DNA of 64,000 bases from Escherichia coli (GCF_003334385.1 NZ_QOWN01000009.1), one strand, 5' to 3'. Numbered from the stretch's first letter, positions 22,787 to 30,196 are shown. The notes: generated by a model not told the origin, from the sequence alone. Numbers and translations: made by a program.

Positions 22787-23692
22787 ATGCGTCGAACGTT
22801 TATCAAAAAAGAAGGCGTCGTCATCACGACGCTGGCCCGTTATTTGTTGGGTGAAAAGTGCGGTAATCGATTGAAAACCATAGATGAGCTGGCAAATGAA
22901 TGCCGTTCATCCGTTGGCCTGACGCAGGCCGCGTTGAAAACGCTGGAATCAAGCGGAGCGATACGGATTGAACGCCGTGGGCGCAATGGCAGTTATCTGG
23001 TCGAGATGGATAACAAAGCATTGCTGACTCATGTGGATATCAACAACGTGGTATGTGCAATGCCCTTGCCCTATACCCGTTTGTACGAAGGCCTGGCGAG
23101 CGGATTGAAAGCCCAGTTTGATGGCATTCCTTTTTACTATGCGCACATGCGTGGCGCGGATATTCGCGTGGAGTGTCTGCTTAATGGCGTGTATGACATG
23201 GCGGTGGTTTCGCGACTAGCGGCGGAAAGTTATCTCACGCAAAAAGGCTTATGCCTCGCGCTGGAGTTGGGGCCGCACACCTACGTTGGCGAGCACCAGT
23301 TGATTTGCCGTAAAGGCGAGTCCGCAAACGTGAAGCGCGTGGGGCTGGATAACCGTTCGGCGGATCAGAAAATCATGACCGATGTTTTTTTTGGCGGTAG
23401 TGATGTGGAACGAGTCGATCTCTCTTATCACGAGAGTTTACAACGCATTGTTAAAGGCGATGTCGATGCGGTGATCTGGAACGTGGTGGCGGAAAACGAA
23501 CTGACCATGCTGGGATTAGAGGCGACGCCGCTCACAGACGATCCGCGATTTTTACAGGCCACCGAAGCCGTGGTCCTGACGCGAGTCGATGATTACCCAA
23601 TGCAACAACTGCTGCGTGCCGTTGTAGATAAACACGCCCTGCTCGCCCATCAACAACGGGTAGTGAGTGGGGAACAGGAACCGAGTTATTAA
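22787..23692 (+). CDS. yhfZ: uncharacterized protein YhfZ (possible regulator of the yhf cluster)
   Basis: 301-aa ORF; first gene of yhfZYXW-php-yhfUTS cluster. Confidence 0.85.
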   Translation: MRRTFIKKEGVVITTLARYLLGEKCGNRLKTIDELANECRSSVGLTQAALKTLESSGAIRIERRGRNGSYLVEMDNKALLTHVDINNVVCAMPLPYTRLYEGLASGLKAQFDGIPFYYAHMRGADIRVECLLNGVYDMAVVSRLAAESYLTQKGLCLALELGPHTYVGEHQLICRKGESANVKRVGLDNRSADQKIMTDVFFGGSDVERVDLSYHESLQRIVKGDVDAVIWNVVAENELTMLGLEATPLTDDPRFLQATEAVVLTRVDDYPMQQLLRAVVDKHALLAHQQRVVSGEQEPSY

Positions 23693-23708
23693 ACGAAAGG
23701 CATCTGAT

Positions 23709-24071
23709 ATGGAAACCAGACTCAACCTGCTTTGCGAGGCAGGCGTTATTGATAAGGACATCTGCAAAGGCATGATGCAGGTCGTCAACGTACTGGAAAC
23801 AGAGTGCCATCTGCCGGTGCGCAGTGAGCAAGGAACGATGGCGATGACACATATGGCGAGTGCACTGATGCGCAGTCGCCGTGGTGAAGAAATAGAGCCG
23901 CTGGATAACGAGTTGCTGGCAGAACTGGCGCAATCCAGCCACTGGCAAGCCGTTGTGCAATTGCATCAGGTGTTGTTGAAGGAATTCGCACTGGAAGTTA
24001 ACCCGTGTGAAGAAGGCTATTTGCTGGCCAACCTTTATGGATTATGGATGGCTGCTAACGAAGAGGTTTGA
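23709..24071 (+). CDS. yhfY: uncharacterized protein YhfY
   Basis: 120 aa from METRLNLLCEAGVIDKDI; ATG at 23709. Confidence 0.82.
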   Translation: METRLNLLCEAGVIDKDICKGMMQVVNVLETECHLPVRSEQGTMAMTHMASALMRSRRGEEIEPLDNELLAELAQSSHWQAVVQLHQVLLKEFALEVNPCEEGYLLANLYGLWMAANEEV

Positions 24072-24154
24072 AGCTCCCGACAAATCCACGTCGCACAACC
24101 TAAATATTCAAAAAAATGAATATTTAATTCAAGGAACAGAAACGAGGCAACAAG

Positions 24155-27783: not shown

Positions 27784-27794
27784 AAGGCACGACT

Positions 27795-29099
27795 ATGGAT
27801 CTGTATATTCAGATTATCGTGGTGGCGTGCCTGACGGGTATGACATCGCTTCTGGCGCATCGCTCGGCGGCTGTTTTTCATGACGGCATCCGCCCGATCC
27901 TGCCGCAACTGATTGAAGGCTATATGAACCGTCGCGAGGCGGGGAGTATCGCTTTTGGTCTGAGCATTGGTTTTGTGGCCTCGGTGGGGATCTCTTTTAC
28001 CCTGAAAACCGGGCTGCTCAACGCATGGTTACTCTTTCTTCCTACCGATATCCTCGGCGTCCTGGCGATAAACAGCCTGATGGCGTTTGGTCTTGGCGCT
28101 ATCTGGGGCGTGTTGATCCTTACTTGCCTGTTGCCAGTAAACCAGCTGCTGACCGCGCTGCCGGTGGATGTATTAGGTAGCCTGGGGGAATTAAGCTCGC
28201 CGGTGGTTTCAGCTTTTGCACTGTTCCCGCTGGTGGCGATTTTCTACCAGTTTGGCTGGAAGCAAAGTCTGATCGCCGCCGTGGTGGTACTGATGACCCG
28301 TGTGGTAGTCGTGCGCTATTTCCCACATCTTAACCCTGAATCCATCGAAATCTTTATTGGCATGGTGATGCTGCTGGGGATCGCGATAACTCACGACCTG
28401 CGTCATCGTGATGAAAATGACATTGATGCCAGCGGGCTTTCGGTGTTTGAAGAACGCACGTCACGGATTATCAAAAACTTACCCTATATCGCCATCGTGG
28501 GAGCATTGATTGCCGCCGTTGCCAGCATGAAGATTTTTGCTGGCAGTGAAGTGTCGATCTTCACACTGGAGAAAGCATATTCCGCAGGCGTAACGCCGGA
28601 ACAATCGCAAACGCTGATTAATCAGGCGGCTCTGGCAGAATTTATGCGCGGACTGGGGTTTGTGCCGTTGATTGCCACCACCGCGTTAGCAACGGGTGTG
28701 TATGCAGTTGCGGGCTTTACCTTTGTTTATGCGGTGGGCTATCTCTCGCCGAATCCGATGGTTGCAGCGGTATTAGGCGCAGTGGTTATTTCGGCGGAAG
28801 TCTTGCTGCTTCGTTCGATCGGCAAATGGCTGGGACGCTACCCGTCGGTGCGTAATGCGTCGGATAACATCCGTAACGCCATGAATATGCTGATGGAAGT
28901 GGCGCTGCTGGTCGGTTCGATTTTCGCAGCAATTAAGATGGCGGGTTATACCGGATTCTCTATCGCGGTTGCCATTTACTTCCTCAACGAATCCCTGGGC
29001 CGTCCGGTACAGAAAATGGCGGCACCGGTCGTGGCAGTAATGATCACCGGTATTCTGCTGAATGTTCTTTACTGGCTTGGCCTGTTCGTTCCGGCTTAA
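27795..29099 (+). CDS. yhfT: inner membrane protein YhfT
   Basis: 434-aa hydrophobic ORF with multiple TM segments. Confidence 0.88.
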   Translation: MDLYIQIIVVACLTGMTSLLAHRSAAVFHDGIRPILPQLIEGYMNRREAGSIAFGLSIGFVASVGISFTLKTGLLNAWLLFLPTDILGVLAINSLMAFGLGAIWGVLILTCLLPVNQLLTALPVDVLGSLGELSSPVVSAFALFPLVAIFYQFGWKQSLIAAVVVLMTRVVVVRYFPHLNPESIEIFIGMVMLLGIAITHDLRHRDENDIDASGLSVFEERTSRIIKNLPYIAIVGALIAAVASMKIFAGSEVSIFTLEKAYSAGVTPEQSQTLINQAALAEFMRGLGFVPLIATTALATGVYAVAGFTFVYAVGYLSPNPMVAAVLGAVVISAEVLLLRSIGKWLGRYPSVRNASDNIRNAMNMLMEVALLVGSIFAAIKMAGYTGFSIAVAIYFLNESLGRPVQKMAAPVVAVMITGILLNVLYWLGLFVPA

Positions 29100-29110
29100 G
29101 GAAGGCACCT

Positions 29111-30196
29111 ATGAAGACGTTTCCTCTGCAAAGCCTGACGATTATTGAGGCGCAGCAAAAGCAGTTTGCGCTGGTGGATAGCATTTGTCGCCATTTCCCC
29201 GGCAGCGAGTTTCTTACTGGCGGTGATTTAGGCTTAACGCCAGGACTGAATCAACCGCGCGTTACCCAGCGTGTGGAACAGGTGCTGGCTGATGCATTTC
29301 ACGCACAGGCTGCGGCGCTGGTGCAGGGCGCGGGGACTGGCGCGATTCGCGCCGGGCTGGCGGCTTTGCTCAAACCGGGGCAGCGTCTTCTGGTGCATGA
29401 CGCGCCTGTTTACCCGACGACACGGGTTATTATTGAGCAGATGGGGCTGACGCTTATTACTGTTGATTTCAATGACCTGTCGGCACTGAAGCAGGTCGTC
29501 GACGAGCAACAACCGGATGCGGCGCTGGTGCAGCATACGCGCCAGCAGCCGCAGGACAGCTACGTGCTGGCAGATGTGCTGGCAACGTTGCGCGCGGCAG
29601 GTGTTCCAGCGTTAACCGATGACAACTATGCGGTGATGAAGGTGGCTCGAATCGGCTGTGAATGCGGCGCGAATGTCTCGACATTTTCCTGCTTCAAGCT
29701 ATTTGGGCCAGAGGGTGTTGGTGCAGTGGTCGGCGATGCTGATGTTATCAACCGTATTCGCGCCACGCTTTACTCCGGCGGTAGCCAGATCCAGGGCGCA
29801 CAGGCGCTGGAAGTATTGCGTGGTCTGGTGTTTGCGCCAGTGATGCACGCGGTGCAGGCAGGGGTATCTGAACGGTTGCTGGCTTTGCTTAACGGTGGTG
29901 CGGTGCCGGAAGTGAAAAGCGCGGTGATTGCTAATGCGCAGTCGAAGGTGTTGATTGTCGAGTTTCATCAGCCGATTGCCGCCAGAGTGCTGGAAGAGGC
30001 GCAAAAGCGCGGTGCCTTGCCTTACCCGGTGGGTGCAGAGTCGAAATATGAAATCCCGCCGCTCTTTTATCGCCTTTCCGGAACGTTTCGCCAGGCGAAT
30101 CCACAATCAGAACATTGTGCGATTCGCATTAACCCGAATCGCAGCGGTGAAGAGACGGTGCTGCGGATTTTGCGTGAGAGTATTGCCAGTATTTAA
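29111..30196 (+). CDS. yhfS: PLP-dependent transferase-like protein YhfS
   Basis: 361-aa ORF, last gene of cluster. Confidence 0.88.
   Translation: MKTFPLQSLTIIEAQQKQFALVDSICRHFPGSEFLTGGDLGLTPGLNQPRVTQRVEQVLADAFHAQAAALVQGAGTGAIRAGLAALLKPGQRLLVHDAPVYPTTRVIIEQMGLTLITVDFNDLSALKQVVDEQQPDAALVQHTRQQPQDSYVLADVLATLRAAGVPALTDDNYAVMKVARIGCECGANVSTFSCFKLFGPEGVGAVVGDADVINRIRATLYSGGSQIQGAQALEVLRGLVFAPVMHAVQAGVSERLLALLNGGAVPEVKSAVIANAQSKVLIVEFHQPIAARVLEEAQKRGALPYPVGAESKYEIPPLFYRLSGTFRQANPQSEHCAIRINPNRSGEETVLRILRESIASI

What the first reader, a model, noticed from the sequence alone, without database searches (positions are those of the whole stretch)
22787..30196. yhfZ-yhfY-yhfX-yhfW-php-yhfU-yhfT-yhfS: an uncharacterised eight-gene cluster next to the frl operon, damaged in this strain
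Eight co-oriented genes with short or overlapping junctions (yhfX/yhfW 1 nt, yhfW/php 4 nt) encode a PLP racemase-fold enzyme, a phosphopentomutase-like metalloenzyme, a phosphotriesterase-family hydrolase, a PLP transferase-like protein, a polytopic membrane protein and small proteins. This is the composition of a catabolic pathway for an unknown amino-sugar or amino-acid derivative. It sits beside the Amadori-product (fructoselysine) operon and is bounded by REP elements. The amber in yhfX suggests the pathway is dispensable in this lineage.
Basis: partly seen in the sequence, partly recalled or inferred. Interest (0 to 1): 0.35.

Follow-up and report, generated by a model that had tools for sequence, protein, structure and literature searches.

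The report
E. coli yhf operon, yhfX amber
This is the long-annotated but still unexplained yhfZYXW-php-yhfUTS gene cluster of E. coli, intact here except for one recent stop codon in yhfX, and comparison with other bacteria suggests it breaks down a phosphorylated amino compound under PTS-linked control.

Summary
Window 22787-30196 holds eight co-oriented genes, yhfZ-yhfY-yhfX-yhfW-php-yhfU-yhfT-yhfS, with junctions of +16, +83, -1, -4, +10, +11 and +11 nt. REP elements flank them, and they lie between trpS and frlR. The only damage is a C>T change at 24509, which turns yhfX codon 119 from CAG to TAG. The nearest genomes are identical over 9 kb apart from that base. Only 1 of 5426 complete E. 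coli genomes carries the same amber, and on a different haplotype.

The locus is already known and annotated. Four of its proteins have crystal structures labelled uncharacterised, and I found no paper that defines its pathway.

New here:
- The set yhfZ/Y/U/T/php/X/W recurs with shuffled gene order in Enterobacterales, Vibrionaceae, Fusobacteriota and Bacillota. All eight genes have dN/dS of 0.01-0.16.
- Adjacency to frl is not conserved.
- A palindrome, AATATTCA-N6-TGAATATT, precedes both yhfZ and yhfX and is conserved across genera.
- YhfU has an RpiB-like fold with an invariant Cys.
- YhfT has no solved structural relative.
- Relatives carry HPr, Enzyme I, EIIC or NagB in the cluster, and none carries a kinase.

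Verdict: a known orphan catabolic locus, with a private knockout in this strain.

The parts
22531..22625 (.). BIME: two inverted REP units between trpS and yhfZ
   Evidence: The sequence GCCGGATGCGGCGTGAACGCCTTATCCGGCCTACA and its inverted partner TGTAGGCCTGATAAG.... Sub-threshold naRNA4 hit. A BIME before yhfZ is reported in PMC2965389.
22644..22670 (+). Intrinsic terminator of trpS, which isolates the cluster from upstream transcription
   Evidence: Nine-pair stem followed by a T run.
22737..22785 (.). Two adjacent operator-like palindromes just before the yhfZ start codon: TATCTTCA-N6-TGAAGATA and AATATTCA-N6-TGAAAATT
   Evidence: The second matches the consensus with 1 mismatch, against 0.16 matches expected per window. 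Both are conserved before yhfZ in Enterobacterales and Vibrionaceae.
22787..23692 (+). yhfZ: transcription regulator with an HTH_41 domain and a YhfZ_C ligand-binding domain
   Evidence: NCBIfam NF041241, 373.6 bits against a cutoff of 260. Pfam HTH_41 and YhfZ_C. The C-terminal domain is solved as 2OZZ.
23709..24071 (+). yhfY: single-PRD-domain protein of 120 aa
   Evidence: Pfam PRD, E 9e-4. Weak hit to TIGR03582. His48 and Arg55 are invariant in 68 homologues.
24103..24124 (.). Perfect palindrome AATATTCA-N6-TGAATATT in the yhfY-yhfX gap; candidate YhfZ operator for the enzyme operon
   Evidence: Conserved before yhfX across Enterobacterales genera. A TATACA-N6-TGTATA variant occurs in Clostridia.
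24155..25318 (+). yhfX: fold-type III PLP enzyme, here a pseudogene
   Evidence: Pfam Ala_racemase_N, E 6.6e-22, and YhfX-like_C. PDB 4KBX. The PLP lysine K61 is conserved.
24509..24511 (+). Amber codon TAG at yhfX codon 119, which is CAG (Gln) in relatives
   Evidence: The same change occurs in only 1 of 5426 genomes.
25318..26544 (+). yhfW: phosphopentomutase-like metalloenzyme of the alkaline-phosphatase superfamily
   Evidence: NF009049, 741.9 bits. PDB phosphopentomutases match at E 3e-31. Thr84 and the metal ligands are conserved.
26541..27419 (+). php: phosphotriesterase homology protein, a binuclear-metal hydrolase
   Evidence: NF007373, 655 bits. PDB 1BF6 and 4LEF. H12, H14, E125, H158, H186 and D243 are conserved.
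27430..27783 (+). yhfU: DUF2620 protein with an RpiB-like fold and invariant Cys52
27795..29099 (+). yhfT: 434-aa polytopic membrane protein; presumed permease or membrane partner of YhfU
29111..30196 (+). yhfS: fold-type I PLP enzyme; an accessory member of the cluster
   Evidence: Pfam YhfS-like_C and Aminotran_1_2. PDB 4J8L. K196 is conserved. Present in only some lineages.
30222..30345 (.). GC-rich palindromic repeat (30222-30290) and a REP unit (30299-30345) between yhfS and frlR

Best explanation
The region is the E. coli yhf locus, a self-contained inducible catabolic or salvage module for a phosphorylated amino compound. The substrate is most likely an amino-sugar or amino-sugar-acid derivative carrying an ester, lactone or amide bond.

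Shown:
- It consists of eight genes that travel together across phyla and are under purifying selection.
- The catalytic residues of Php, YhfW, YhfX and YhfS are conserved.
- The same palindrome precedes yhfZ and yhfX.

Inferred steps:
1. YhfZ represses both units, yhfZY and yhfXW-php-yhfUTS, by binding the palindromes, and releases them when its YhfZ_C domain binds the inducer.
2. YhfY, a lone PRD domain with an invariant His, ties expression or uptake to the phosphorylation state of the PTS.
3. The membrane protein YhfT, with its obligate partner YhfU, brings the compound in. Because the conserved set has no kinase, the phosphate either comes with the substrate or is added at this step.
4. 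Php hydrolyses an ester-type bond of the phosphorylated intermediate.
5. YhfW moves or removes the phosphate.
6. YhfX (PLP on Lys61) and, where present, YhfS (PLP on Lys196) work on the amino-bearing carbon.

In this strain a recent Q119-to-amber change leaves an 118-residue YhfX fragment without most of the barrel. It probably also lowers expression of the translationally coupled downstream genes. The pathway is therefore off in this isolate but not in its close relatives.
For: Identity of the locus.

Co-occurrence with shuffled order:
- 80 genome loci from Enterobacterales, Vibrionaceae, Sebaldella, Clostridia and Bacilli.
- Relatives with YhfT only 27-44% identical.

Purifying selection: dN/dS 0.01-0.16 against E. 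albertii, Citrobacter and Buttiauxella.

Conserved catalytic residues:
- Php: H12, H14, E125, H158, H186, D243.
- YhfW: D10, T84, D298, H302, D338, H339.
- YhfX: K61.
- YhfS: D170, K196.

Operator:
- Two matches in the cluster against 0.16 expected per window.
- Conserved position before yhfZ and yhfX in many genera, with a co-varying form in Clostridia.
- No internal terminator beyond chance.

Phosphate chemistry without a kinase:
- YhfW and Php families.
- No other conserved neighbour family.

PTS link:
- YhfY PRD domain with invariant His48.
- HPr plus Enzyme I directly after yhfW in L092, HPr in L093, Enzyme I in L076.
- ChbC-type EIIC directly after yhfW in L090, L056 and L059.

Amino-sugar hints:
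- NagB, above its curated cutoff, directly after the cluster in L079, and a weaker relative in L081.
- NgcE-like binding protein in L092, weak.

From memory, not retrievable here: Nemmara et al., Biochemistry 2018, reported that Php hydrolyses only phosphorylated esters (glyceryl acetates), not lactones.

The amber and its recency.
Against: - No substrate is known, and no experiment is cited that shows transport, induction or any native reaction.
- The accessory genes that hint at amino sugars or the PTS occur in a minority of lineages, and none is in E. coli.
- Some relatives have an ABC importer beside YhfT, so YhfT may not be the importer.
- YhfU looks more like an isomerase (RpiB) than a transport component.
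- YhfW is missing in several Yersinia and YhfS in many lineages, so the pathway is not fixed.
- The polarity of the amber is inferred, not shown.
Confidence: 0.55

Rival explanations
1. YhfU-YhfT is an unrecognised PTS-type Enzyme II. Phosphate would pass from PEP through Enzyme I and HPr to Cys52 of YhfU and onto the substrate as it crosses, or is held by, YhfT. That would explain why a pathway full of phosphoester enzymes has no kinase. YhfY would sense the phosphorylation state, as PRD domains do in classical PTS operons.
For: - YhfU has an invariant Cys in a glycine-rich loop after a beta-strand.
- HPr and/or Enzyme I genes lie inside the cluster in L076, L092 and L093, with no classical EIIA, EIIB or EIIC seen in the stretch read of these loci.
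- A PRD protein with an invariant His is a core member.
- No kinase is in the conserved set.
- yhfU and yhfT are adjacent in nearly every locus, and occur alone as a pair in L003 and L004.
Against: - No EIIA is present.
- L093 has HPr but no yhfU.
- HPr and Enzyme I in the cluster could serve only to phosphorylate the PRD protein.
Confidence: 0.2
2. The cluster extends the neighbouring frl system and degrades a glycated amino acid (Amadori or related product).
For: - The cluster is adjacent to frlRDCBA in this window and in most E. coli.
- The PLP enzymes and a sugar-phosphate-type mutase would suit a sugar-amino acid adduct.
Against: - frl is convergent, on the opposite strand, and separated by repeats.
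- Outside some E. coli no frl homologue lies within about 9 kb of the cluster, while trpS remains the upstream neighbour.
- The yhf proteins share no family with the frl proteins.
Confidence: 0.05
3. The cluster is a cryptic, decaying remnant in E. coli, and the amber is one step of ongoing loss.
For: - 342 of 5426 complete genomes lack the cluster, and 3 of 39 evenly sampled genomes carry an insertion or deletion in it.
- TUM1881 has stops in both yhfX and yhfT.
- No phenotype has been reported.
Against: - dN/dS is 0.01-0.16 for every gene.
- Active sites are intact.
- The cluster is present in 93.7% of genomes.
- The nearest relatives of this strain are intact.
Confidence: 0.1

Closest known systems
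E. coli K-12 yhfZ-yhfY-yhfX-yhfW-php-yhfU-yhfT-yhfS locus (annotated, function unknown)
   Same: Same genes, order and flanks. The region is identical, apart from one base, to several sequenced strains. Four products have deposited structures: 2OZZ, 4KBX, 1BF6/4LEF and 4J8L.
   Different: Only the amber at yhfX codon 119.
PTS-linked phospho-sugar lactonase clusters of the phosphotriesterase family (Listeria Lmo2620 type) and the ula L-ascorbate system. Comparison from memory.
   Same: A metal hydrolase acts on a phosphorylated intermediate. PTS-linked control is present and there is no kinase. Php gives a sub-threshold hit to the phospho-furanose lactonase model.
   Different: - The Php score is far below that family's cutoff, 102 against 630 bits.
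- From memory, Php did not hydrolyse lactones.
- The yhf cluster has no classical EIIA, EIIB or EIIC.
- It adds two PLP enzymes and a phosphomutase.
EF_0829/AHA_3910 conserved cluster of TIGRFAMs and the Salmonella D-glucosaminate (dga) operon. Cluster composition recalled from memory.
   Same: A small stand-alone PRD protein sits beside small soluble and membrane proteins of unknown function, an amidohydrolase-type enzyme and a PLP enzyme. YhfY and its L094 counterpart hit TIGR03582 weakly.
   Different: The scores are below the cutoff, 28 against 69 bits. No other yhf protein matched those families. Homology of the transport parts was not tested.
RpiB/LacAB sugar-phosphate isomerases (comparator for YhfU)
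   Different: - YhfU is about 30 residues shorter.
- It falls below the Pfam threshold, E 0.16.
- It is always encoded next to a membrane protein.
- It lacks the N-terminal Asp-His of RpiB (by inspection).

Membership tests
E. coli yhfZYXW-php-yhfUTS locus | Same eight genes, in the same order, between trpS and frlR | tested here: met
   9001 bases match strain 720632 with one mismatch, and the annotation lists all eight genes.
PTS Enzyme II (YhfU as EIIB, YhfT as EIIC) | EIIB fold with the phosphorylatable Cys at the first strand-loop | tested here: not met
PTS Enzyme II (YhfU as EIIB, YhfT as EIIC) | Membrane component with a known EIIC fold | tested here: not met
PTS Enzyme II (YhfU as EIIB, YhfT as EIIC) | Phosphoryl transfer from HPr or EIIA to the protein and then to the substrate | not testable with these tools
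   Only context is available: HPr and/or Enzyme I genes lie inside relatives' clusters in L076, L092 and L093.
RpiB/LacAB isomerase (YhfU) | Family profile match at threshold | tested here: not met
   Pfam LacAB_rpiB E 0.16 over 30 residues. PDB RpiB sequences E 0.4-0.9.
RpiB/LacAB isomerase (YhfU) | RpiB fold with the catalytic Cys-x-Thr | tested here: met
RpiB/LacAB isomerase (YhfU) | Full set of ring-opening and phosphate-binding residues, including the C-terminal segment | tested here: inconclusive
   YhfU has 117 aa against about 149, and the alignment ends before the RpiB C-terminal segment.
Phosphopentomutase DeoB (YhfW) | Score above the DeoB equivalog cutoff | tested here: not met
   TIGR01696 scores 145.8 bits against a cutoff of 341.2. 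YhfW has its own model, NF009049, at 741.9 bits.
Phosphopentomutase DeoB (YhfW) | Thr nucleophile and two-metal site of the alkaline-phosphatase superfamily | tested here: met
   D10, T84, D298, H302, D338, H339 and H350 are conserved in at least 97% of 70 sequences.
Phosphotriesterase / phospho-furanose lactonase (Php) | Score above the curated cutoffs of the characterised families | tested here: not met
   OPH scores 100.5 against 500. The phospho-furanose lactonase model scores 102.4 against 630.
Phosphotriesterase / phospho-furanose lactonase (Php) | Binuclear metal centre ligands | tested here: met
   H12, H14, E125, H158, H186 and D243 are conserved in 78 sequences. Identical to 1BF6/4LEF.
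Alanine racemase (YhfX) | N-terminal PLP barrel with the Schiff-base Lys | tested here: met
   PF01168 E 6.6e-22. K61 is conserved.
Alanine racemase (YhfX) | Alanine racemase C-terminal domain, or a match to a racemase equivalog | tested here: not met
   The C-terminal domain is YhfX-like_C. The best equivalog is ornithine racemase at 28 bits against a cutoff of 480.
frl (fructoselysine) system | Conserved genomic linkage or shared protein families with frlABCDR | tested here: not met
   frl homologues lie near the cluster only in one E. coli locus of 80 (L011). trpS linkage is conserved instead.
EF_0829/AHA_3910 cluster | Members score above the TIGR03577-03583 cutoffs | tested here: not met
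   Only YhfY matches, TIGR03582 at 28.4 bits against 69.35. YhfU and YhfT give no hit even at E 10.

The most novel reading that the evidence does not exclude
YhfU and YhfT together form a new kind of PEP-dependent phosphotransfer module. An RpiB-fold protein with an invariant Cys would take phosphate from HPr and, with a membrane protein of unsolved fold, phosphorylate an amino compound on entry. That would make the yhf locus the founding example of an unrecognised PTS family, controlled by a lone PRD protein and a GntR-like repressor.
Probability: 0.2. Interest if true: 0.7.

Novelty: already known. Interest (0 to 1): 0.3.

Why it matters
The yhf locus is one of the better-studied 'unknowns' of E. 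coli. It is present in about 94% of strains and four of its proteins have crystal structures, yet it has no assigned substrate or pathway.

The amber in this isolate has no wider importance by itself. The comparative results give concrete handles for solving the locus:
- a candidate operator, which makes derepression simple to attempt;
- a core gene set (YhfT, YhfU, YhfX, Php, YhfW, YhfY, YhfZ) distinct from accessory genes such as YhfS;
- a repeated link to HPr, Enzyme I, EIIC and NagB in other bacteria;
- the absence of any kinase.

If the phosphate turns out to be delivered by YhfU-YhfT, that would add a new branch to the phosphotransferase system.

Tried and rejected
**Literature.** Seven full-text searches found no paper assigning a pathway. 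The terms covered the yhf gene names, 'phosphotriesterase homology protein', DUF2620, PF10797 and an author name. Mentions of yhfW in PMC5293155, PMC3423039 and PMC7730263 were incidental. The 2018 Biochemistry paper on Php that I recall could not be fetched by DOI, so it is cited from memory only.

**frl link.** Tested by searching the Frl proteins against the ORFs of the fetched relatives' loci, and rejected.

**Conserved extra neighbours.** Clustering 499 flanking ORFs gave only lineage-specific synteny, for example the Yersinia glrK/glrR, hmp and nadE neighbours.

**YhfT next to a decarboxylase in L005.** Judged to be incidental synteny.

**EF_0829-type cluster homology.**
- A homologue search with YhfY returned only YhfY orthologues.
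- NCBIfam at E 10 gave no hit for YhfU or YhfT.
- The link therefore stays a recalled resemblance.

**First attempt at the genome scan.** A 42-sequence alignment had no conserved stretch and the call failed. An 11-sequence alignment worked.

**RNA elements.** Rfam found only REP-related sub-threshold hits.

**Strain identity.** No complete genome in the collection is identical. The nearest over another 24 kb are 99.9% identical, the K-12 strain NCM3722 among them.

**Idea not tested.** Php, YhfX and YhfW could salvage aminoacyl (for example D-alanyl) glycerol-phosphate from teichoic acid or aminoacyl-phosphatidylglycerol. This fits the recalled Php substrate profile, but no tool result here supports it.

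
Full report
**What is in the window**

The gaps between them are +16, +83, -1, -4, +10, +11 and +11 nt. A 9-kb query around them matches every complete E. coli genome. It is identical, apart from one base, to strain 720632 and at least 14 others. In 720632 RefSeq annotates trpS, then yhfZ, yhfY, yhfX, yhfW, php, yhfU, yhfT and yhfS, then convergent frlR-frlD-frlC-frlB-frlA. The locus is therefore the known yhf cluster of E. 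coli.

**The flanks**

- Upstream, a two-unit BIME lies at 22531-22625, followed by the trpS terminator at 22644-22670.
- Downstream, a GC-rich palindrome lies at 30222-30290 and a REP at 30299-30345.
- Rfam gives sub-threshold naRNA4 (REP-derived) hits on both sides and nothing else.
- A published survey lists a BIME before yhfZ (PMC2965389).

**The damage**

The single difference from the nearest genomes is C>T at 24509. It changes yhfX codon 119 from CAG to TAG. The other seven genes are intact.

A 63-base probe centred on the site found an exact match in only 1 of 5426 complete genomes, TUM1881. In that genome yhfX is flagged 'internal stop' and yhfT is also broken. TUM1881 differs from the window at 139 other positions in 9 kb, including sites 61 nt before and 59 nt after the amber. 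The same change therefore arose twice or moved by a very short conversion.

The PLP lysine of YhfX is K61. Nearly all other conserved residues lie after position 119, so the 118-residue product cannot be active. Because yhfX and yhfW overlap (TAATG), early termination probably also reduces expression of the downstream genes. That step is inferred. Whether the base call itself is right cannot be judged from the window.

**How dispensable the cluster is**

- With the repeats excluded, the cluster matches in 5084 of 5426 genomes. It covers at least 80% in 5062 and is absent from 342.
- Three of 39 evenly spaced hits carry an insertion or deletion.
- Against E. albertii, Citrobacter and Buttiauxella, every gene has dN/dS between 0.03 and 0.16.
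- Against TUM1881, every gene except yhfX has dN/dS of 0.07 or less.

The cluster is thus lost now and then but is maintained by selection. The amber is private to this isolate, not a trait of a lineage.

**The proteins**

| Protein | Finding |
|---|---|
| YhfZ | HTH_41 plus YhfZ_C; the C-terminal domain is solved as 2OZZ |
| YhfY | Single PRD domain; His48 and Arg55 invariant in 68 homologues; weak hit to TIGR03582 |
| YhfX | Alanine-racemase-type PLP barrel with its own C-terminal domain; PDB 4KBX |
| YhfW | Its own NCBIfam model; the DeoB model scores below cutoff; Thr nucleophile and metal ligands conserved |
| Php | PDB 1BF6 and 4LEF; six metal ligands conserved; far below the cutoffs of organophosphate hydrolase and phospho-furanose lactonase |
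| YhfS | Fold-type I PLP enzyme; PDB 4J8L; K196 conserved |
| YhfU | DUF2620 |
| YhfT | PF10797 |

**Comparative context**

A genome scan found YhfT relatives in 289 stretches of the GTDB species set, and 80 loci were fetched. Searching the eight E. coli proteins against their ORFs gave three results:
- yhfZ, yhfY, yhfU, yhfT, php, yhfX and yhfW occur together in Enterobacterales, Vibrionaceae, Sebaldella, Clostridia and Bacilli, but in at least four different orders.
- yhfS is present only in some lineages.
- yhfW is missing in several Yersinia.

Relatives with YhfT at only 27-44% identity show the same partners. Two loci carry nothing but yhfU-yhfT.

No other family is conserved around the cluster, and in particular no kinase. 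frl homologues are near the cluster in one E. coli locus only, whereas trpS stays upstream in Enterobacteriaceae. The frl neighbourhood therefore says nothing about function.

Accessory genes that recur in separate lineages:
- HPr and Enzyme I directly after yhfW in L092, HPr in L093, Enzyme I in L076.
- A ChbC-type EIIC directly after yhfW in L090, L056 and L059.
- NagB directly after the cluster in L079 and L081.
- A short amidase-signature protein beside YhfT in L063 and L094, and fused to it in G5HJH7.
- A Cof-type phosphatase in L006.
- Sugar-type and amino-acid-type binding proteins in L092, L093 and L094.

**Regulation**

The yhfY-yhfX gap holds a perfect palindrome, AATATTCA-N6-TGAATATT, at 24103-24124. 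A one-mismatch copy lies at 22761-22782, five bases before the yhfZ start. A related TATCTTCA-N6-TGAAGATA lies at 22737-22758.

In the 64-kb window the pattern, with up to three mismatches, occurs at these two places plus one three-mismatch site, against 0.16 expected. The motif sits at the same two positions in Citrobacter, Klebsiella, Buttiauxella, Cedecea, Yersinia and others. It lies before yhfZ in Vibrionaceae and occurs three times in Sebaldella. Clostridia carry a TATACA-N6-TGTATA variant before yhfZ or yhfU.

This is a phylogenetic footprint of an operator, most simply that of YhfZ. It implies two regulated units, yhfZY and yhfXW-php-yhfUTS. That agrees with an operon table listing the last six genes together (PMC4448311). 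No internal terminator stands out.

**How it most likely works**

Three things are shown: the module is conserved and constrained, its catalytic sites are intact, and a shared operator-like site precedes both units. The rest is inferred.

Two enzymes belong to families that handle phosphoesters. From memory of Nemmara et al. (Biochemistry 2018, not retrievable here), Php requires a phosphate group on its ester substrates and does not open lactones. Two enzymes use PLP and so need a primary amine. The most constant enzyme partner of YhfU/YhfT is YhfX.

The substrate is therefore probably a phosphorylated amino compound with a hydrolysable ester-type bond. The recurrent NagB, chitobiose-type EIIC and NgcE-like binding protein point loosely to amino sugars or amino-sugar acids.

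Since no kinase is present, the phosphate either arrives with the substrate or is added by a PTS-like step. The PRD protein and the HPr and Enzyme I genes in relatives make the second option a serious rival. However, YhfU's fold is RpiB-like rather than EIIB-like, and YhfT resembles no known EIIC.

**Comparison with known systems and verdict**

The locus is the known yhf cluster, so its novelty class is 'already known'. It resembles PTS-linked phospho-sugar hydrolase operons (Lmo2620 type, ula) and the EF_0829/dga type of amino-sugar-acid cluster in its logic. Every membership test against those families failed on score or fold.

Its interpretation is partly supported: a catabolic unit for an amino compound is plausible, but the frl link is not supported, 'lineage' dispensability is not supported, and the cluster is probably two operons rather than one.

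Interest is modest for the finding as given. The open function of the locus and the possible new phosphotransfer module are what make it worth following up.

Noticed in passing
window 24509; L002 (TUM1881) yhfX: The identical CAG>TAG change at yhfX codon 119 occurs in the window and in TUM1881, on haplotypes that differ at 139 of 9001 sites. The differences include flanking sites 61 nt before and 59 nt after the amber. This is a recurrent mutation or a very short gene conversion.
   Followed up: partly
window 24657-24703 (inside yhfX): About 20 differences fall within 47 nt between the window and TUM1881. This raises yhfX dN/dS to 0.24 for that pair. It looks like a mosaic or recombined patch.
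   Followed up: no
window 25316-25318; L002 7840-7841: TUM1881 has one extra A just before the yhfW start. The yhfX/yhfW junction there is adjacent rather than overlapping by 1 nt.
   Followed up: no
L008, L009, L012-L039 downstream of yhfS: No frl homologue lies within about 9 kb of the cluster in an E. coli strain (SCPM-O-B-8794), an Escherichia sp., Citrobacter, Klebsiella or Buttiauxella. frl is therefore variable even within Escherichia, while trpS linkage is kept.
   Followed up: partly
L092 12844-14870; L093 8386-8649; L076 14974-16761: Genes for the general PTS proteins HPr and/or Enzyme I sit directly after the yhfW or yhfX homologue in three unrelated Bacillota or metagenome clusters, and no classical EIIA, EIIB or EIIC was called in the stretch of those loci that was read.
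   Followed up: partly
L094 4771-7004; L063 11323-12378; AFDB G5HJH7: A short protein of about 315-345 aa with an amidase-signature motif lies beside YhfT (L063) or a second YhfT paralogue (L094). In Clostridium citroniae it is fused to YhfT as a 768-aa protein.
   Followed up: partly
L079 15779-16591; L081 15787-16659: A NagB-type glucosamine-6-phosphate deaminase gene directly follows the cluster in two Bacilli, Thalassobacillus and Melghirimyces. In L079 a 2-phosphosulfolactate-phosphatase-family gene comes next.
   Followed up: partly
L054-L087 (Vibrionaceae), about 200 nt inside php: A three-mismatch version of the palindrome, AATCCTCA-N6-TGAAAATT, recurs inside the php coding region of many Vibrio and Photobacterium loci. 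It may be an internal operator or just conserved coding sequence.
   Followed up: no
window 30222-30290: An imperfect GC-rich palindrome of 26-nt arms (GGTCCCCTCGCCCCTTTGGGGAGAGGGTTAGGGTGAGGGGAAC) lies between yhfS and the REP. From memory it resembles the boxC repeat class.
   Followed up: no
window 56410-56431: A three-mismatch match to the operator-like palindrome lies far outside the cluster. It is probably chance.
   Followed up: no
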